IMG/VR virus record: IMGVR_UViG_3300035670_000025 | DNA: 64,000 bases | Origin: a virus | Strand: one strand, 5' to 3' | Shown here: in pieces, positions 28,003 to 60,341 of the stretch | Layout: every line of letters starts with the position of its first letter | How positions within the stretch are numbered: position 1 is the stretch's first letter | Translations under genes and position numbers: made by a program | The notes under the pieces: model-generated | Seen by the model: only the letters and a program-made list of their open reading frames with translations | Told to the model about the DNA's origin: nothing | Databases searched by the model: none

Positions 28003-28224
28003 ATGTTGACTTTTGAAAAAATCCGATGGCAGAAAAGTATCATAAATACTCATAAAAGAACATTATCTGGGATTGATGGTGGTTATCAATTAGACCACAT
28101 CATATCGATAAAATTTGGATTTGACAATAACATATCTCCTGAGGCATTATCAGAAAAAAGTAATTTGAGAATGTTGCCTTGGAAAAAGAACCTAGAAAGA
28201 AATTGGGTTAAAAATACCTTTTAA
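28003..28224 (+). pseudogene. orphan gp46 N-terminus fused to a remnant HNH endonuclease C-terminus
   Basis: MLTFEKIRWQ matches the gp46 start ILIFSKIRWQ; followed by CATAAATA and YQLDHIISIK..NLRMLPWKKN. Confidence 0.65.
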
Positions 28225-28253
28225 GTTAAAATTATTATGTGGAGGATGTGACC

Positions 28254-29960
28254 ATTCTTATATTTTCTAAAATCCGATGGCAAAATTTTCTGTCTACGGG
28301 AAACATGTTTACGGAAATCCAACTTAATTCTCATAATAATACTTTAATTTGTGGGGTCAATGGTTCTGGAAAAAGTACTTTGATTGATGCGATAACATTT
28401 GTTCTTTTTGGAAAATCGTTTCGTAATATAAACAAACCACAATTAATCAACAGTACAAATTCTAAAAATATGTTGGTAGAAATAGAATTTTCTATCAATG
28501 GAAACAAATACATAGTTCGTCGTGGAATGAAACCAAATATATTTGAAATCTATCAAAACGGAACTTTGATAAATCAATCAGCAGACAGTAAAGATTATCA
28601 ATCAATTTTAGAAAAAACAATTCTTAAAATGAATTATAAATCATTTTGTCAGGTTGTTGTTCTTGGTTCTGCAAACTTTACTCCGTTTATGCTATTACCA
28701 GCAGCACAAAGAAGAGCATTTGTTGAAGATTTGTTGGATATACAAATATTCACAACCATGAATGCTTTGCTTAAAGATAAAACAGCAGAAAACAAGTTTG
28801 AGATCACAGATTGTGATACCAAAATCAAGATTGCAGAAAATACTTTAGAAGTGAATAAAAAGCATAGAGAACGTGCTTCTCGTGATATCATGGAATTAAT
28901 TTCTCAAAAAGAAACATTGATTAAAGAAACTCAATTAGAATTAGATACTCACAATTCTGAGTTCTCTTCCTTGGAAATTAAAAGCAATCAATTACAGTCA
29001 AAAATAAGCAAGAACAGGCAGAAAAATAAGAATGCACTGGATAAGGCATACAATATGAGAACTGCCCTAGAATCTAAATTAAAGGGCAATGAGAAGGGTA
29101 TTGCATTCTATCAGGGAAATGATTCTTGTCCCACCTGTGAACAACATATTACTTCTGATTTTAAAGATAAGAAATTGCTTGATATTTCTACAAAGAAAGA
29201 AGAAAACGAATCTATTCTCAAAGAATTATCAGAAAAGATTTCAAAACTGGAAAAGAATCAAGAGCAAATTATTTCATGGGCAGATGAATTACAACAACTA
29301 AACAAAGAACTTATTGAACTTTCTTCTAAAATTAATTTCTGCATGAAAGTAATTTCTTCATATGAGAAAGATATCAAAGATTTGAACAATAATTCGTTGG
29401 TCGAAATTGATGATACAGAAACTATTAATAAATTGAATTATTTGAAAAAAACAAAAGAACATCTTTTTGCTCAAAGAGAACTATATAATGTTGGTCTCGT
29501 TTTGTTGAAAGATGGTGGAATTAAGGCAAAAATTATCAAACAATATATTCCAGTTATCAATCAGATGATTAACAAGTATTTGGACGATATGGAATTTTTC
29601 TGTCAATTTACTATTGATGAAACCTTTGAAGAAAAGATAAAGTCCAGATATAGGGATGCTTTTACCTTTGAATCTTTTTCTGAAGGAGAAAAAATGAGAT
29701 TGAATCTTGCTATTCTTTTTACATGGAGAGAATTGGCAAGAATGAGAAATTCAGCAGCAACGAATCTTCTAATACTTGATGAAATCATGGATTCTTCTTT
29801 AGATTCATCTGGTACTGAAGAATTCATTAAAATTGTTCAATCGTTAACAAAACGAAATAATGTATTTGTTATTAGTCATAAGACGGATCAAATACAAGAA
29901 CGATTTGAAAATATTATTAGATTTGAAAAGAAAAAGAACTTTTCAAAGATTGTAGAATAG
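28254..29960 (+). CDS. gp46: recombination ATPase gp46 (Rad50/SbcC-like); likely ATT start
   Basis: NFLSTGN, GVNGSGKST, CPTC hook, FSEGEK, LILDE; GGAGG 8 nt before ATT 28254. Confidence 0.95.
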   Translation: MLIFSKIRWQNFLSTGNMFTEIQLNSHNNTLICGVNGSGKSTLIDAITFVLFGKSFRNINKPQLINSTNSKNMLVEIEFSINGNKYIVRRGMKPNIFEIYQNGTLINQSADSKDYQSILEKTILKMNYKSFCQVVVLGSANFTPFMLLPAAQRRAFVEDLLDIQIFTTMNALLKDKTAENKFEITDCDTKIKIAENTLEVNKKHRERASRDIMELISQKETLIKETQLELDTHNSEFSSLEIKSNQLQSKISKNRQKNKNALDKAYNMRTALESKLKGNEKGIAFYQGNDSCPTCEQHITSDFKDKKLLDISTKKEENESILKELSEKISKLEKNQEQIISWADELQQLNKELIELSSKINFCMKVISSYEKDIKDLNNNSLVEIDDTETINKLNYLKKTKEHLFAQRELYNVGLVLLKDGGIKAKIIKQYIPVINQMINKYLDDMEFFCQFTIDETFEEKIKSRYRDAFTFESFSEGEKMRLNLAILFTWRELARMRNSAATNLLILDEIMDSSLDSSGTEEFIKIVQSLTKRNNVFVISHKTDQIQERFENIIRFEKKKNFSKIVE

Positions 29961-45562: not shown

Positions 45563-45774
45563 TGGTATCATTTAGTCGTTCTATTAATTCAACCATTATC
45601 AGGTTGCAAAATTTGCATTCTGCTCTTGCATTTGTAACTGAATCTACAAAGTATGATATTGATATTAGAGATTATATGTGTGAATCTTTAATGAAAGAAA
45701 TTAAAGATATTGAAAATGAGATTGGGTTAGTTATGTCTGAAGAAGCATGGGAAAATTATAGAGGGGTGATCTAA
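45559..45774 (+). CDS. hypothetical protein
   Basis: Coupled to the gp41 stop. Confidence 0.5.
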   Translation: MMVSFSRSINSTIIRLQNLHSALAFVTESTKYDIDIRDYMCESLMKEIKDIENEIGLVMSEEAWENYRGVI

Positions 45775-45968
45775 TGAATTATGATATTTCTCGCACAAAC
45801 AAAATTTTTAATGTAATTGAAAAGCAAACAGGACATTGTATTAAATCTTTTGAAACTCAAAAGAAAGCATTTGAATATTGTTGTTTTCTTAATGCGGGAG
45901 GTGGATTTGATGGATTTACACCAGAATTTTTTATCAAAAATGTAAAAATTATAAATAGTGAACAATGA
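45774..45968 (+). CDS. conserved hypothetical protein
   Basis: LNAGGGFDGFTPEFF motif; coupled start. Confidence 0.55.
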   Translation: MNYDISRTNKIFNVIEKQTGHCIKSFETQKKAFEYCCFLNAGGGFDGFTPEFFIKNVKIINSEQ

Positions 45969-46133
45969 GTCGTGTTTATGGTTTTCCATAAGAGGCAAGT
46001 GTTTATTTAGTTTAGACGCAAGGAAGTGACGAGACCACAGGTGGGGTTCCTCTCGTTCACGACATTTTTGTTTTTAATAGGCATCGTATTGCCGATAAGG
46101 GAAGTAGAGGCAACTTTACTTCCCTATTTTTTT
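45963..46133 (+). ncRNA. candidate structured non-coding RNA
   Basis: Late promoter TATAAATA (45950), GC-richer multi-stem intergenic sequence, closing stem gtcgtg/cacgac, terminator 46098-46133. Confidence 0.55.
46098..46133 (+). terminator. intrinsic terminator
   Basis: agggaagtagag-gcaa-ctttacttccct followed by a T-run. Confidence 0.85.
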
Positions 46134-46167
46134 ATGCTATGATCCTTCATCAACAAGGAGATTGACC

Positions 46168-46260
46168 GTGAACATCTTTTATATTTCGACCGATCCAATC
46201 ATTGCTGCTCAAATGATGGTAGATCGTCATGTAGTAAAAATAATTTTGTGTAATTTCTAA
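46168..46260 (+). pseudogene. orphan 5' fragment of the denV-like gene
   Basis: AAGGAG + GTG; MNIFYISTDPIIAAQMMVDRHVVKIILCNF* parallels the N-terminus at 46849. Confidence 0.8.
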
Positions 46261-46303
46261 ATTTACTAAATAATAAAACAGAAATTGCACAAAGGAAAAT
46301 TTT

Positions 46304-46852
46304 ATGACAATTCAAACCCCCCCACCAAGAAAAATGCCACAGATGGCAAGATCAGGCAAAAATAAGTATGGGAATCCAAAACCAAAAATACAATGCCAAA
46401 AATGTAAAGAATATTTGCGTGAAAATAAATTTTCTTTAATAGACAAAACAGACAGCAAAAAAGGTCGGAGGTCAAATTGCAAATCTTGTTCTGCAAAAAA
46501 AGCAAAAATAGAACGAGATAGAAGAAAAAACGATTGGAAATATAAACCGACCTTATCTATGCTGAATAACTCAAAGCAAAGAGCAAAAAATAGTAATTTG
46601 GAACATACTTTAGTTATTGAAGATATAGTTATACCGGATTATTGTCCGGTGTTCGGCATTAAGTTAGAAACAGGAAATAGAAAAAATCATATAAACGCAC
46701 CCAGTATTGATAGAATTGACAACACTAAAGGTTATATTAAAGACAATATTTTAATTATGTCAGTAAAAGCAAATATATTAAAAAAAGATGCAACGTTAGA
46801 TGAATTGATTATGCTTGGAAAATGGGCAGAAAAAATGAAAGACAAACTATGA
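46304..46852 (+). CDS. HNH-like (His-Me finger) homing endonuclease
   Basis: CxxC..CxxC; CPVFG..PSIDRIDNTKGY..DN....KAN. Confidence 0.8.
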   Translation: MTIQTPPPRKMPQMARSGKNKYGNPKPKIQCQKCKEYLRENKFSLIDKTDSKKGRRSNCKSCSAKKAKIERDRRKNDWKYKPTLSMLNNSKQRAKNSNLEHTLVIEDIVIPDYCPVFGIKLETGNRKNHINAPSIDRIDNTKGYIKDNILIMSVKANILKKDATLDELIMLGKWAEKMKDKL

Positions 46853-47385
46853 ATATTTTTTATCTATCACCAAATGCAAAACTATCAGCACAAACGTTGG
46901 TCAATAGACATGTTGTTTCTCAAACAAAAGAAACAGCACAACTATTATCTACAGCACACAGAGTATTAGATGGTAATATGGTAGTTGTTCCAAATGAAAA
47001 TGGAAGGAAAATGAAACGGTGGGTATTACGAGATGATAGAGAAACCAAGTTATATCTTGCTTCTCACACAAATCATCCAAGTGCAATTTGGTGTAGAGAA
47101 ACATCTGCTAACTATCAGTGGTTGTATTGGCATTTTGTTGGATTGTTGGATGAATATACTCACAGATATGGCAAAGTTCACAAATGTGCATCTATGAAAG
47201 ATGTATTATCGGAGTTGCCAAAGAGCATTAAGTTTGGTGGATTTAGTGAACCAACTCCTGCTATGGATGAGCAGTATATTGTGAAAGGTAACAGTTTGAA
47301 GTCGTATATGAATTATTATAAATATGGTAAAGTGCATTTGCACGCATGGACCAACAGATCACCACCGGACTGGATTAAGGAATGA
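46849..47385 (+). CDS. pyrimidine dimer DNA glycosylase/endonuclease V-like protein
   Basis: MNIFYL..RHVV..ETAQLLSTAH, HTNHPSAIW, EYTHRYGKVH, PAM, RSPPDW. Confidence 0.75.
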   Translation: MNIFYLSPNAKLSAQTLVNRHVVSQTKETAQLLSTAHRVLDGNMVVVPNENGRKMKRWVLRDDRETKLYLASHTNHPSAIWCRETSANYQWLYWHFVGLLDEYTHRYGKVHKCASMKDVLSELPKSIKFGGFSEPTPAMDEQYIVKGNSLKSYMNYYKYGKVHLHAWTNRSPPDWIKE

Positions 47386-48416
47386 TGAGATTTAAAACCT
47401 TTATAAATGAGTCTTATGGAAGATACTTTCGCAGAGAAAAAGCAAGAAAAAAAGGAAGCAGAGTAAACAAAACTGTTTCCGATTATTTTGAAATGGCCAC
47501 GGTTGTGCACACTCACAATTCATTAAGTCATCCAAATCAACATCCAGAATATTTAGATCACATTGAAGATTTAAAAACAAAATTGGACACGATCAGAGCA
47601 AACAATCCTCATTTAAAAGACAGGTTGGATTCTCAAGATTCTTTAGCAAAAAAATCTTCAAAATTATTAATAGATAAATTGTCTGAAAAAAGGTCTAAGG
47701 AAAAAGATTTTACTTTACAAGATGTATCTGAAGTAAGGCATGTAAAAAATGCTAGACATTTATTTAGTTTAATAGGAAGAACCCCTGACAGTTCTTTTAG
47801 TGCTAGAAGATATCCACACGATTTAATGTTTAAACTAAGAACCGGTTCTTTTCATGGAGCATCGTTGAAAGGATCAGAAAAAGATTTTGGAACATACAAC
47901 AATCTTGGGGCTCGCAGGCATTCATCAGAGGACACGACTGGAATAGCATCTCATGCGTATGCTGATTATAATTCTGCAAGAACCAGAGAACTTGGTTCAA
48001 ACAAGACAAAAGAAAATAAAGAAAGCAAAAGATCTTCTTATTTAGAAACAAGAAAAGGCATTGTTGATAAAATAACAAAGAATTTCAATGGTGCAAATTC
48101 AATAGATCAACAAAGAAAATATCTTCATTCTTTATTAAAACCAGAATCGGATATACCATATTATACTGTTTTGCCACATAGAAATCAAGGACAGGGTGAA
48201 GCAATTCTTCATGGCAGAGGAACAATGAGAAAAAGGATCAATTCTGCTACAAGATTGTCTGCTACCCAACATGGAAACGGAGTTATACAATATCATACGC
48301 ATCATGAAGATGGACGAAAAATACCTCTATTTTATGTAGAACACCGGTCTACAAAAGGTCCATGGGGTTCATTACAATTTAATGTAAAACTGGGACAATT
48401 TAAGAAAGAAGAATAA
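47385..48416 (+). CDS. putative PD-(D/E)xK-like nuclease with capsid-targeting-like N-terminus
   Basis: MRFKTFINE; FE...PHDLM...GASLK. Confidence 0.45.
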   Translation: MRFKTFINESYGRYFRREKARKKGSRVNKTVSDYFEMATVVHTHNSLSHPNQHPEYLDHIEDLKTKLDTIRANNPHLKDRLDSQDSLAKKSSKLLIDKLSEKRSKEKDFTLQDVSEVRHVKNARHLFSLIGRTPDSSFSARRYPHDLMFKLRTGSFHGASLKGSEKDFGTYNNLGARRHSSEDTTGIASHAYADYNSARTRELGSNKTKENKESKRSSYLETRKGIVDKITKNFNGANSIDQQRKYLHSLLKPESDIPYYTVLPHRNQGQGEAILHGRGTMRKRINSATRLSATQHGNGVIQYHTHHEDGRKIPLFYVEHRSTKGPWGSLQFNVKLGQFKKEE

Positions 48417-59103: not shown

Positions 59104-59658
59104 ATGCATTACAGGAAAATATGGGAATCATATCACAACGAATCTATACCAGAAAAATATGAAATACATCATGTTGATGGTAATAGAAATAACAACCACC
59201 CAGATAATCTTTTATGTGTTTCTATCGAAGAACATTTAAAAATACATAAAACACAAGAAGATTGGGGGGCAGTACAAGCAATTCTTGCTAGAATGGAAAA
59301 TAGAGATGGTATAATTGAAGCAGCAAGAAATTTTCAATTGCAAAAATTGCAAGAAAATACTCACAATTTTCAACGCATGAGTAAAAAGAGACGAACTGAA
59401 ATAAGTAAAAAAACTATGAAAAAAAGATTGAAAATAGAAGGGGTTGCTTTTTTAGGTATAGATGATGTTAAATTGAATAGTAAAAAAGCAGGGTTGGTTG
59501 CAGCACAAAAAAAATCAGGATTTTTAAACCCTGATACTGATAAACACGGAAGCAATTATGTTAAAGATACTTTTTGGTGGACGAATGTTGAAACCGGAGT
59601 AAGAATTAGAAGTAAATTTGCTCCAAATGAAAAATGGAAAAAAGGAATGAAGTTATGA
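59104..59658 (+). CDS. HNH homing endonuclease
   Basis: YRKIWE..EIHHVDGNRNNNHPDNLLCV..EEH..IH; start moved to the ATG after GGAG (59091). Confidence 0.85.
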   Translation: MHYRKIWESYHNESIPEKYEIHHVDGNRNNNHPDNLLCVSIEEHLKIHKTQEDWGAVQAILARMENRDGIIEAARNFQLQKLQENTHNFQRMSKKRRTEISKKTMKKRLKIEGVAFLGIDDVKLNSKKAGLVAAQKKSGFLNPDTDKHGSNYVKDTFWWTNVETGVRIRSKFAPNEKWKKGMKL

Positions 59659-60341
59659 CATATGATTGGCAAAAAGTAAAACTCGTAGCAATAACTCAAC
59701 CAGATATTGATAATGAACAAGGAATAAAAATTAATGCAGAAGAATTTATTGCATATTGCGCCAGAGTTTCAAATAAATCAAATCAGATGAATGTTCAAAC
59801 AGCAAACAAATTGTTGAAATATTGCATAACAAATAATCATTGGAGCATTTTTGAAATGGTATCTTTAACCATGGAAATTGAGACTACCCGAGATATTGGT
59901 AGACAGATTCTACGACATCGTTCATTTAGTTTTCAGGAGTTTAGTCAACGATATGCAGAATCTGGTGAAGAATTTCCTGATAAGGATATGAGAGAATGCA
60001 GACTACAAGATATGAAGAATCGTCAGAATTCTCTTGAAACTGATAATGATATGCTGCGGATGAATTGGTTGCTTGCACAAACGAGAGTGCAAGAAATTGC
60101 ATTGCGTGAATATAATTGGGCAATTAAAGCAGGTATTGCTAAAGAGGTAGCAAGATCAATTCTTGCAGAAGGTCTTACTATGTCCAGAATCTATATGAGT
60201 GGGACACTTAGGTCTTGGATTCATTATTGCCAATTGAGAATGGAAAATGGAACACAAAAAGAACATCAGGATATTGCTGACAAGTGTTGGAATATTCTGC
60301 TTGAAAAGTTTAAGTTTCTGAAGGATTTGAAAAATGAATAG
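59655..60341 (+). CDS. thyX: flavin-dependent thymidylate synthase
   Basis: ARVS, HWSIFE, RHRSFSFQEFSQRY, TQKEH. Confidence 0.95.
   Translation: MTYDWQKVKLVAITQPDIDNEQGIKINAEEFIAYCARVSNKSNQMNVQTANKLLKYCITNNHWSIFEMVSLTMEIETTRDIGRQILRHRSFSFQEFSQRYAESGEEFPDKDMRECRLQDMKNRQNSLETDNDMLRMNWLLAQTRVQEIALREYNWAIKAGIAKEVARSILAEGLTMSRIYMSGTLRSWIHYCQLRMENGTQKEHQDIADKCWNILLEKFKFLKDLKNE

What the first reader, a model, noticed from the sequence alone, without database searches (positions are those of the whole stretch)
46155..46960. Homing endonuclease that inserts inside a gene and supplies a recoded replacement N-terminus
Seen: SD + GTG gives MNIFYISTDPIIAAQMMVDRHVVKIIL, then a stop. Next come a hairpin with a late promoter, an intact HNH-like gene, and, overlapping its stop (ATGA), MNIFYLSPNAKLSAQTLVNRHVVSQTKETAQLLSTAH continuing as the full denV-like gene. 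The orphan copy looks closer to the family pattern I recall (DP..AAQ..D.HVVKM), while the functional copy diverges exactly at the insertion point. There is no room for an intron core and no intein motif. Inference: a splicing-free way to home into a conserved coding site, in which the element carries a substitute, cleavage-resistant 5' end. The same layout appears at gp46 and possibly thyX, so it may be a general strategy.
Basis: partly seen in the sequence, partly recalled or inferred. Interest (0 to 1): 0.82.

Follow-up and report, generated by a model that had tools for sequence, protein, structure and literature searches.

The report
Homing nuclease replaces a gene's start
A selfish nuclease gene in a T4-like water phage moved into a DNA-repair gene, bringing its own copy of that gene's first 27 codons and leaving the original start as a dead stub, which marks the likely cutting site of a new nuclease family.

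Summary
A native promoter, ribosome-binding site and GTG open a 27-codon stub (46168-46248). A hairpin, an HNH-like gene (46304-46852) and, ATGA-overlapped, the complete DenV-like gene (46849-47385) follow.

Homology breaks at codon 27 and resumes at codon 28, so 681 bp were inserted.

The nuclease belongs to an unnamed, PacI-like HNH family that lacks the canonical histidine. Every ortholog found, about 45 loci, abuts the 5' end of a DenV-like gene, and its presence is patchy on the gene tree.

In a second case (L114) the nuclease and the first ~26 codons came together from another lineage, with the same right boundary but no stub. A second long stub (L107 group) and shorter start remnants occur in other lineages.

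Best reading: intronless homing with a cut near codons 24-28, obligatory co-conversion of the gene's 5' end, and here an illegitimate left join at a TTTTG microhomology. This is a new variant of a known kind, not a new mobility principle. No cleavage has been shown. The scan had also noted the pattern at gp46 in this genome.

The parts
46098..46143 (+). Native terminator hairpin and sigma-70-like promoter (TTTACT-17-TATGAT) of the DenV-like gene
   Evidence: Conserved with nuclease-free relatives L002-L004.
46155..46160 (+). Native Shine-Dalgarno sequence AAGGAG
   Evidence: Conserved in L002 and L003.
46168..46260 (+). Orphan 5' stub of the DenV-like gene: GTG start, 27 native codons (46168-46248), then C-N-F and a stop
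   Evidence: PHROG 624, E 4e-8. (93% to L003). (homology to L003 ends after codon 27).
46244..46248 (+). Left junction: TTTTG microhomology shared by target codons 26-27 and the base of the cassette hairpin
   Evidence: The stub-less cassette in L114 starts with the same TTTTG-TGTA.
46244..46294 (+). Cassette hairpin: 15-bp stem whose loop holds a late-promoter-like ACTAAATA (46265-46272). The 3' arm runs into the nuclease gene's ribosome-binding site.
   Evidence: dG -14.4, z -4.15. (6 of 12 pairs show compensatory changes in 4 loci). (perfect TATAAATA in most orthologous loci).
46304..46852 (+). HNH-like (PacI-like beta-beta-alpha-metal) putative homing endonuclease, 182 aa, with an N-terminal CxxC...CxxC zinc finger
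   Evidence: PHROG 3322, E 4e-32. (invariant residues). (pLDDT 83.7; PacI E 9.4e-4, Z 6.8). (always next to a DenV-like gene).
46849..46929 (+). Foreign replacement 5' end (27 codons) of the functional gene. Codons 24-27 (46918-46929) read S-Q-T-K instead of K-M-I-L.
   Evidence: The same S-Q-T-K coding block occurs in unrelated gene bodies.
46930..47385 (+). Native body of the DenV-like (Pyr_excise) gene, starting at the invariant Glu28. It is 92% identical to nuclease-free L002.
   Evidence: PF03013, 26.5 bits against a cut-off of 23.. (E28 invariant). (pLDDT 96; T4 endonuclease V 1enj, Z 8.4, next hit 4.5).

Best explanation
The 182-aa protein is a free-standing homing endonuclease. It belongs to an undescribed HNH lineage that lacks the canonical histidine, and it lives immediately upstream of the DenV-like (T4 endonuclease V fold) gene of T4-like aquatic phages.

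Inferred mechanism:
1. During mixed infection it cuts nuclease-free alleles near codons 24-28. This is the K-M-I-L-E coding site just before the invariant Glu28.
2. The nuclease gene lies 81 bp to the left of the cut. Break repair from a nuclease-bearing genome must therefore copy the nuclease together with the donor's first ~27 codons (obligatory co-conversion). The donor's version of the site (here S-Q-T-K; K-L-I-L or K-Q-I-L elsewhere) is presumed to resist cutting.
3. In this phage the right end of the break invaded homologously at codon 28.
4. The left end was hardly resected and was joined illegitimately, through a TTTTG microhomology, to the base of the cassette's hairpin.
5. The native promoter, ribosome-binding site, GTG and 27 codons therefore stayed behind as a dead stub.

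Expression probably follows the T4 pattern. The hairpin would dampen nuclease translation on early read-through transcripts. The late promoter in its loop would release it late. The repair gene would then be translated by ATGA coupling.

Shown here: the anatomy, the breakpoints, the linkage of nuclease and target gene, the patchy distribution, the joint transfer of nuclease and 5' end, and the protein folds.

Inferred only: cleavage, the exact cut site, resistance of the variant alleles, the repair route and the regulation.
For: - **Empty site.** Nuclease-free relatives L002, L003 and L004 have the stub sequence fused to codon 28. DNA homology stops at 46248 and resumes at 46930.
- **Linkage.** All roughly 45 loci whose nuclease is at least ~43% identical abut the 5' end of a DenV-like gene. 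More distant homologs do not.
- **Patchiness.** Nuclease presence needs 16 gains or losses on the gene tree, at least 6 of them forced by well-supported branches. The window's clade mixes carriers (WIN, L114) and non-carriers (L002-L004).
- **Joint transfer.** L114 against L105: nuclease 86% identical, N-terminus 22/26, gene body 61%. L114 against L002: body 95%, N-terminus 17/26. The crossover lies at codon 26/27.
- **L107 group.** Contigs are identical from the stub to about codon 23 and diverge after that (L107 against L112). L107 and L110 are identical over 1.1 kb except two single sites and six changes within 10 nt at codons 22-25.
- **Codon 25.** It is not ATG in 6 of 34 nuclease-linked alleles against 0 of 56 nuclease-free ones (Fisher p about 0.002 by my arithmetic, not corrected for shared ancestry).
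- **Start remnants.** A gene-start motif lies just upstream of the hairpin in 10 of 32 distinct loci, against about 1.7 expected.
- **Fold and regulation.** HNH fold. Conserved hairpin with a late promoter in the loop, as reviewed for T4 homing endonucleases (PMC2988022, section 12).
- **Repair precedent.** One-sided illegitimate break repair at microhomologies is documented for T4 intron homing (PMC2988022, section 5).
Against: - No cleavage data exist.
- The residue that is the general-base histidine in canonical HNH enzymes is an invariant arginine here (D136-R137). No Pfam HNH model matches. Nuclease activity is therefore inferred from fold and genomic context only.
- Many nuclease-linked alleles keep an ordinary K-M-I-L site, so the resistance determinant is unclear and may differ between subclades.
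- No donor with the window's replacement N-terminus was found. The best match is 70% over 40 residues among 5.8 billion proteins.
- The coincident breakpoints could partly reflect a recombination preference for the highly conserved codons 28-37 rather than the cut site.
- The 5-nt microhomology could be chance in AT-rich DNA.
Confidence: 0.75

Rival explanations
1. The stub is a working part of a self-contained cassette, which is the first reader's 'general strategy'. The unit [stub + hairpin + nuclease + replacement 5' end] would home like an intron that needs no splicing. The stub provides the left homology arm right at the cut, codon 28 onward provides the right arm, and each new host keeps its own start as the next stub.
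For: - In the L107 group an identical block, from the stub's ribosome-binding site to codon ~23 of the functional copy, sits between differing flanks. It is seen in 7 contigs from several samples.
- Once a stub exists, homology does abut the presumed cut on both sides.
- gp46 in this genome has a 10-codon stub fused to a truncated HNH fragment, followed by a second copy of the start.
Against: - Only 2 lineages of about 30 have long stubs. Others have 2-10 codons or none.
- L114 gained the nuclease plus the 5' end with no stub, through ordinary flanking homology in the terminator region.
- The differing left flank in the L107 group is explained by a purM/purN insertion or deletion, not by independent insertions.
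- Nothing suggests selection on the stub.
Confidence: 0.15
2. The HNH-like protein is not an active homing nuclease. It could be a DNA-binding or regulatory protein, or a dead relic. The duplication would then be a scar of ordinary illegitimate recombination between mosaic phage genomes.
For: - The canonical catalytic histidine is replaced by an invariant arginine, and the zinc cysteines of the endonuclease VII type core are absent.
- No Pfam HNH hit.
- Weak PHROG hits to Srd-like anti-sigma and sigma-decoy families.
- The fold Z-scores are modest, at most 6.8.
Against: - The protein is strongly conserved (62-86% identity between loci whose target genes are only 44-62% identical), with invariant D136, N148, N157, K160, Y144 and four zinc-finger cysteines. 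That is not a decaying relic.
- Strict linkage to a single target gene, patchy distribution, and three independent recombination boundaries at the same codons are the signature of homing.
- From my memory, not checked here: PacI, the best structural match, is itself an active HNH enzyme without the canonical histidine.
Confidence: 0.07
3. The 681-bp insert is a group I or II intron (or the protein an intein), so that the stub is a true first exon spliced to codon 28.
For: The insert lies exactly between codons 27 and 28, and joining the flanks would restore an in-frame, native-looking gene.
Against: - No intron model matches 46100-47100 even at E up to 10.
- Only 55 nt lie before the ORF and 81 nt after it.
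- The 81 nt are an in-frame, family-like N-terminus with its own ATG.
- The same nuclease-plus-gene arrangement works without any upstream exon in L114, L033, L082, L083 and many others.
- The nuclease has its own start and stop codons, so it is not an intein.
Confidence: 0.02

Closest known systems
Intronless homing by free-standing T4 endonucleases (SegF, SegG, MobE)
   Same: - A free-standing nuclease gene sits beside its target gene.
- The cut lies at a distance from the insertion point, so flanking markers are co-converted.
- Distribution among close relatives is patchy.
- Regulation is by a hairpin plus late promoter (PMC2988022, PMC2790892).
   Different: - The nuclease family differs: PacI-like, no canonical histidine, no Pfam model.
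- The target is new: a DenV-like gene.
- The nuclease is fused by ATGA overlap to the target's start, so the co-converted tract is the gene's own N-terminus.
- In some lineages the recipient's 5' end survives as a stub. I did not find this described in the T4 reviews I searched.
One-sided, illegitimate double-strand-break repair in T4 td intron homing (Parker, Belisle and Belfort 1999, as summarised in PMC2988022, section 5)
   Same: Homology on one side only, junctions at microhomologies, and variable resection. This is the route proposed for the left junction at TTTTG.
   Different: That work used engineered substrates. Here the product appears fixed in natural phage genomes, and the stubs range from 2 to 27 codons.
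MobA and the 50-nt bypass insert of T4 gene 60 as one mobile cassette (Bonocora et al. 2011, recalled from memory, not read here)
   Same: The nuclease travels with an adjacent piece of target-gene sequence that disrupts its own recognition site.
   Different: There the protective piece is an untranslated insert skipped by the ribosome. Here it is a translated alternative N-terminus, and no bypass is needed.
Free-standing GIY-YIG and LAGLIDADG genes in fungal mitochondria with partial duplications of atp9, atp6 or cox1 (PMC7487136), and the Allomyces atp6 element (from memory)
   Same: A nuclease gene is inserted at the end of a host gene, a replacement terminus is supplied, and the displaced original terminus is left as a pseudogene fragment.
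   Different: These are organelle genomes with other nuclease families, and most cases involve C-terminal ends. No phage counterpart was found in the literature searched.
PacI restriction endonuclease (PDB 3ldy)
   Same: It is the best structural match to the catalytic half (Foldseek E 9.4e-4; Z 6.8, rmsd 2.9 over 86 residues). It has a zinc-supported beta-beta-alpha-metal core.
   Different: Only 17% identity, different biology (restriction enzyme against a phage selfish element), and the N-terminal zinc finger is not shared.

Membership tests
HNH (beta-beta-alpha-metal) nuclease superfamily | Beta-beta-alpha-metal fold | tested here: met
   Model pLDDT 83.7. PacI E 9.4e-4. Z-scores: PacI 6.8, Gme HNH 5.6, Hpy99I 4.7, McrA 4.2, endonuclease VII 3.5. 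PHROG HNH and endonuclease families, E 1e-8 to 4e-32.
HNH (beta-beta-alpha-metal) nuclease superfamily | Canonical general-base histidine (the first H of H-N-H) | tested here: not met
   The corresponding motif is an invariant S-I-D-R-I-D (D136, R137) in 27 diverse homologs.
HNH (beta-beta-alpha-metal) nuclease superfamily | Conserved Asn residues of the motif (structural and metal-binding) | tested here: inconclusive
   N148 and N157 are invariant, but their roles are assigned by position only.
HNH (beta-beta-alpha-metal) nuclease superfamily | Match to a curated HNH sequence model (Pfam) | tested here: not met
   No Pfam family even at E up to 10.
HNH (beta-beta-alpha-metal) nuclease superfamily | Metal-dependent DNA cleavage | not testable with these tools
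   Needs a biochemical assay.
F-CphI / DHHRN homing endonucleases (endonuclease VII motif) | Central D-H-D-H flanked by CX2-4C and CX2C (PMC6083498) | tested here: not met
   The core reads S-I-D-R-I-D with a single upstream Cys (C114), and S-x-x-A-N replaces C-x-x-C-N.
Free-standing homing endonuclease (intronless homing) | Nuclease gene outside any intron or intein, next to its target gene | tested here: met
Free-standing homing endonuclease (intronless homing) | Presence/absence polymorphism among close relatives, with an intact empty site | tested here: met
   L002-L004 lack it and L114 and the window carry it within one well-supported clade.
Free-standing homing endonuclease (intronless homing) | Co-conversion of flanking target sequence together with the nuclease gene | tested here: met
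   The L114 N-terminus tracks the nuclease lineage (L105), not its own gene body. The window's first 27 codons are foreign.
Free-standing homing endonuclease (intronless homing) | Site-specific cleavage of the nuclease-free allele and resistance of the carrier allele | not testable with these tools
   Only indirect evidence: breakpoints and a substitution hot spot at codons 22-28, and codon 25 changed in 6/34 against 0/56 alleles.
Group I/II intron or intein | Ribozyme core, or an in-frame protein-splicing domain | tested here: not met
   No Rfam intron match at E up to 10. The nuclease has its own start and stop. Relatives lack any upstream exon.
Target gene: T4 endonuclease V / Pyr_excise (PF03013) | Curated family model and fold | tested here: met
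   PF03013, 26.5 bits against a cut-off of 23. Model pLDDT 96. T4 endonuclease V 1enj Z 8.4 over 118 residues, next hit 4.5. Foldseek and PDB sequence searches missed it.
Target gene: T4 endonuclease V / Pyr_excise (PF03013) | Catalytic residues (N-terminal amine; the Glu23 equivalent) | tested here: inconclusive
   Glu28 is invariant in 32 homologs. Its equivalence to T4 Glu23 rests on my recalled alignment, not on a residue-level superposition.

The most novel reading that the evidence does not exclude
Replacing the end of a gene may be a general and so far unrecognised way for free-standing homing endonucleases to sit inside essential or conserved coding sequences without any splicing. The element would carry a resistant copy of the gene's 5' end, and the displaced native start would persist for a while as a stub. 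Once present, the stub makes the element home as precisely as an intron. Here this is seen with an HNH family lacking the canonical histidine at the DenV-like gene, in several lineages and at the same codons. It is also seen with an unrelated HNH at gp46 in the same genome. A PD-(D/E)xK-like nuclease sits at the same DenV-like position in another phage (L197).
Probability: 0.3. Interest if true: 0.7.

Novelty: new variant of a known kind. Interest (0 to 1): 0.56.

Why it matters
- **A testable cut site from sequence alone.** For an uncharacterised and abundant nuclease family (427 database homologs at E 0.001 or better, no Pfam model, arginine where HNH enzymes have their catalytic histidine), the data give a predicted target within about 15 bp. 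They also give natural candidate resistant alleles (S-Q-T-K, K-L-I-L, K-Q-I-L).
- **A fossil of the invasion step.** The stub appears to record an illegitimate, one-sided repair event that has so far been documented mainly with engineered T4 substrates.
- **Annotation.** Short orphan ORFs upstream of nuclease genes, and chimeric N-termini, should be expected in T4-like metagenomic genomes.
- **Evolution of a repair gene.** Selfish nucleases seem to drive mosaicism and local diversification right next to the invariant glutamate of a DNA-repair enzyme.

Tried and rejected
- **DNA searches of the phage collection** with 45600-47600, near and distant modes: no match.
- **Pfam and PDB sequence searches for the nuclease:** nothing.
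- **PDB sequence and profile searches, and Foldseek, for the target protein:** all missed T4 endonuclease V. Only the all-against-all structural search found it.
- **Intron hypothesis:** no Rfam match.
- **Conserved non-coding stretch upstream:** no tRNA and no convincing Rfam family.
- **Donor of the replacement N-terminus:** not found. The best is 70% over 40 residues. This search did, however, reveal the shared S-Q-T-K block.
- **Self-similarity scan of the whole window:** at E 1e-3 or better, the only pair that is a short orphan beside its own gene was the DenV-like one; the few other hits link distant, unrelated ORFs. The gp46 copy is too short to score.
- **Generic stub scan over 59 distinct nuclease loci:** recovered only the DenV-linked cases. 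The L182 hit is a tandem duplication of nuclease paralogs, not a target stub.
- **thyX:** an HNH_3 gene overlaps its start, but I saw no orphan thyX start on reading the frames.
- **'AATAATTTTG' before the hairpin as a target-site remnant in all loci:** rejected as unsafe, because in several loci that stretch is a -10-like promoter element.
- **Three close nuclease homologs (P0002, P0008, P0009):** no DNA available.
Full report
**What is in the sequence.** The window comes from a complete 149-kb T4-like virus record with terminal repeats. Its closest cultured relatives by this gene are Pelagibacter and Synechococcus myophages, at no more than 47% protein identity.

Downstream of the replicative helicase gene the order is as follows:
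- a terminator hairpin (46098-46125) and a sigma-70-like promoter (46115-46143);
- AAGGAG, then GTG at 46168;
- 27 codons of a DenV-like N-terminus, followed by three junk codons and a stop at 46258-46260;
- a 15-bp hairpin at 46244-46294;
- a 182-codon ORF at 46304-46852;
- overlapping its stop by ATGA, a 178-codon gene at 46849-47385.

The 178-codon protein passes the Pfam Pyr_excise cut-off. Its model (pLDDT 96) matches T4 endonuclease V as a lone top hit, Z 8.4 against 4.5 for the next. 'DenV-like' is therefore justified.

**The stub is the native start.** The 30-residue stub matches PHROG 624 positions 1-27 (E 4e-8). The three closest homologs of the full gene are L002, L003 and L004, at 77-84% identity, and none has a nuclease gene. 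All start with GTG or TTG, and their N-termini are 78-93% identical to the stub. The stub and the window's own functional N-terminus are only about half identical (12/23 aligned residues).

At DNA level the terminator, promoter, ribosome-binding site and codons 1-27 align column for column with L002-L004. Homology then ends abruptly after TTG (46248). In the functional copy it resumes at GAA (46930), which is codon 28. Residues 28-178 are 92% identical to L002.

So 681 bp lie exactly between codons 27 and 28 of the native gene: hairpin, nuclease gene and 27 foreign codons. An independent assembly has the identical 1051 bp.

**The nuclease.** It has no Pfam match and no PDB sequence match. It does hit PHROG 'endonuclease', 'endonuclease VII' and 'HNH endonuclease' families, and it has 427 homologs in metagenomes.

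Twenty-seven diverse homologs share invariant residues: an N-terminal CxxC...CxxC, and a core reading A-P-S-I-D-R-I-D ... G-Y ... N ... S-x-x-A-N-x-x-K. The model (pLDDT 83.7) places residues 76-176 on HNH nucleases. PacI is best (Foldseek E 9.4e-4, Z 6.8). Gme HNH, Hpy99I, McrA, T4 endonuclease VII and Cas9 HNH domains follow.

The canonical histidine is an invariant arginine. The D-H-D-H and cysteine pattern that defines the F-CphI family (PMC6083498) is absent. It is therefore an HNH-fold protein of an undescribed subfamily. That it is catalytically active is an inference.

**Behaviour as a homing element.** I ran a six-frame HMM scan of 94 loci that carry homologs.
- Every nuclease at least ~43% identical to the window's (about 45 loci, 34 distinct alleles) abuts the 5' end of a DenV-like gene. 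Almost all are co-oriented and within 0-50 nt of its start, most within about 10 nt. Two are divergent.
- More distant homologs sit elsewhere.
- On a tree of the gene bodies, nuclease presence needs 16 changes, at least 6 forced by supported branches. The window's clade holds both carriers and non-carriers.
- The nuclease proteins are more alike (62-86%) than the genes they sit beside (44-62%).

**The nuclease and the first ~27 codons travel together.** L114 is a close relative of the window, with the same upstream non-coding region and terminator and a gene body 95% identical to L002. It carries a nuclease 86% identical to that of L105. Its N-terminus also follows L105 (22/26) rather than L002 (17/26), although the L105 body is only 61% identical. 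The switch from L105-like to L002-like DNA lies at codon 26/27. L114 has no stub. Its left junction lies in the shared terminator region, so it is the product of ordinary two-sided homologous repair.

**A second long stub, and a hot spot.** Seven contigs from several samples (L107-L113) carry one identical nuclease, preceded by a 24-codon stub.
- L107 and L112 are identical from the stub's ribosome-binding site to about codon 23 of the functional copy, and then diverge through the gene body.
- L107 and L110 are identical over 1.1 kb except two single sites and six substitutions within 10 nt at codons 22-25.
- In this group stub and functional copy are about 93% identical in DNA. The 'recoding' seen in the window therefore only reflects how different donor and recipient were.

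**Shorter remnants.** A gene-start motif (ATG/GTG/TTG-AAY-RTH) lies just upstream of the hairpin in 10 of 32 distinct loci, against about 1.7 expected from the same loci's background. The remnants run for about 9 codons (L123), 6 (L115) or 3 (L128, L130, L135). L083, L121 and L129 keep only ATGAAT. These are either independent joins after different amounts of resection, or progressive erosion of longer stubs. I cannot tell which.

**Where the cut is.** A stub of 27 intact codons means the left DNA end still reached codon 27. The foreign tract ends by codon 28 in the window and at codon 26/27 in L114. In the L107 group both the boundary and the hot spot lie at codons 22-25. Together these place the break at about codons 24-28, just before the invariant Glu28.

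Codon 25 is ATG in all 56 nuclease-free alleles but is TTG or CAA in 6 of 34 linked alleles. The window's S-Q-T-K block, with near-identical DNA, recurs in unrelated gene bodies (P0121, P0123) and as S-Q-L-K in P0124. One of these lies beside a PD-(D/E)xK-like nuclease and two have no adjacent nuclease. It is therefore an established allele segment and probably functional, not a repair accident.

**The left junction.** Target codons 26-27 (ATT TTG) and the base of the cassette hairpin in stub-less relatives (TTTTG-TGTA in L114) share TTTTG. This fits microhomology-mediated joining, as described for one-sided td intron homing (PMC2988022, section 5).

**Regulation (inferred).** The hairpin is kept by compensatory changes in four loci (6 of 12 pairs). 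Its loop carries TATAAATA in most loci, and a 6/8 match in the window. Its 3' arm touches the nuclease's ribosome-binding site. This is the arrangement reviewed for I-TevI, SegB and MobE (PMC2988022, section 12).

**Alternatives.** An intron is excluded as far as sequence can show (stub-less relatives). A non-nuclease role is unlikely given the linkage, the patchiness and the coincident boundaries, but it cannot be excluded without an assay. A purpose-built cassette that uses the stub is possible once a stub exists. It is not the rule, because most loci lack one.

**Known or new.** Intronless homing, distant cleavage with co-conversion, and illegitimate repair are all established (PMC2988022, PMC2790892). 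Partial gene duplications next to free-standing endonuclease genes are reported in fungal mitochondria (PMC7487136). In the phage literature I could search I found no description of a 5'-end replacement that leaves a native stub, and none of this nuclease family or target. I class it as a new variant of a known kind.

**Elsewhere in this genome.** The gp46 start shows a comparable layout with a truncated canonical HNH. The pattern may therefore recur in this genome, as earlier notes of this scan also proposed.

Noticed in passing
window 28003-28283: gp46 start duplicated. A 10-codon copy of the gene's start is fused in frame to a 63-residue C-terminal fragment of a canonical HNH (D-H ... N ... 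N; PHROG 5104 positions 143-200 of 228). After GGAGG, a second and divergent copy of the same start continues as the 573-aa gp46.
   Followed up: partly
window 59107-59658 and 59634-60341: An HNH_3 endonuclease gene (PF13392, E 1e-11) overlaps the start of thyX (PF02511, E 5e-40). I saw no orphan thyX start upstream when reading the frames.
   Followed up: partly
window 45960-46097: About 140 nt of non-coding sequence between a 64-aa ORF and the terminator is almost identical in L003, L114 and L196, although the neighbouring sequence varies. L114 has a 21-nt insertion within it. There is no tRNA and no Rfam family. It may be a small RNA or a regulatory leader.
   Followed up: partly
L197:874-1353: A 159-aa PD-(D/E)xK-like nuclease (PHROG endonuclease families, E 2e-12; weak Pfam Phage_endo_I and TnsA-like hits) overlaps the start of a DenV-like gene. 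That gene carries the same S-Q-T-K coding block as the window. A second nuclease class may therefore use the same site.
   Followed up: partly
L107 against L110, codons 22-25 of the functional copy (L107:3115-3124): Two contigs are identical over 1.1 kb except two single sites and six substitutions within 10 nt at the presumed target site (H-V-T-K-L against H-I-V-K-M).
   Followed up: yes
L107:863-2355 against L109:1967-2341: A purM/purN-like pair (AIRS and Formyl_trans_N domains) is present or absent immediately upstream of the stub in otherwise near-identical phages. The DenV-like gene therefore sits at a variable-cargo boundary.
   Followed up: no
L140 and L147: In two loci the nuclease gene lies next to the 5' end of the DenV-like gene but in divergent orientation. 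L140 also has GTGAACATT just upstream of the nuclease start.
   Followed up: no
L179, L182, L184, L191, L194: More distant members of the nuclease family occur as tandem paralog pairs. In L182 the leader sequence before each copy is duplicated as well.
   Followed up: partly
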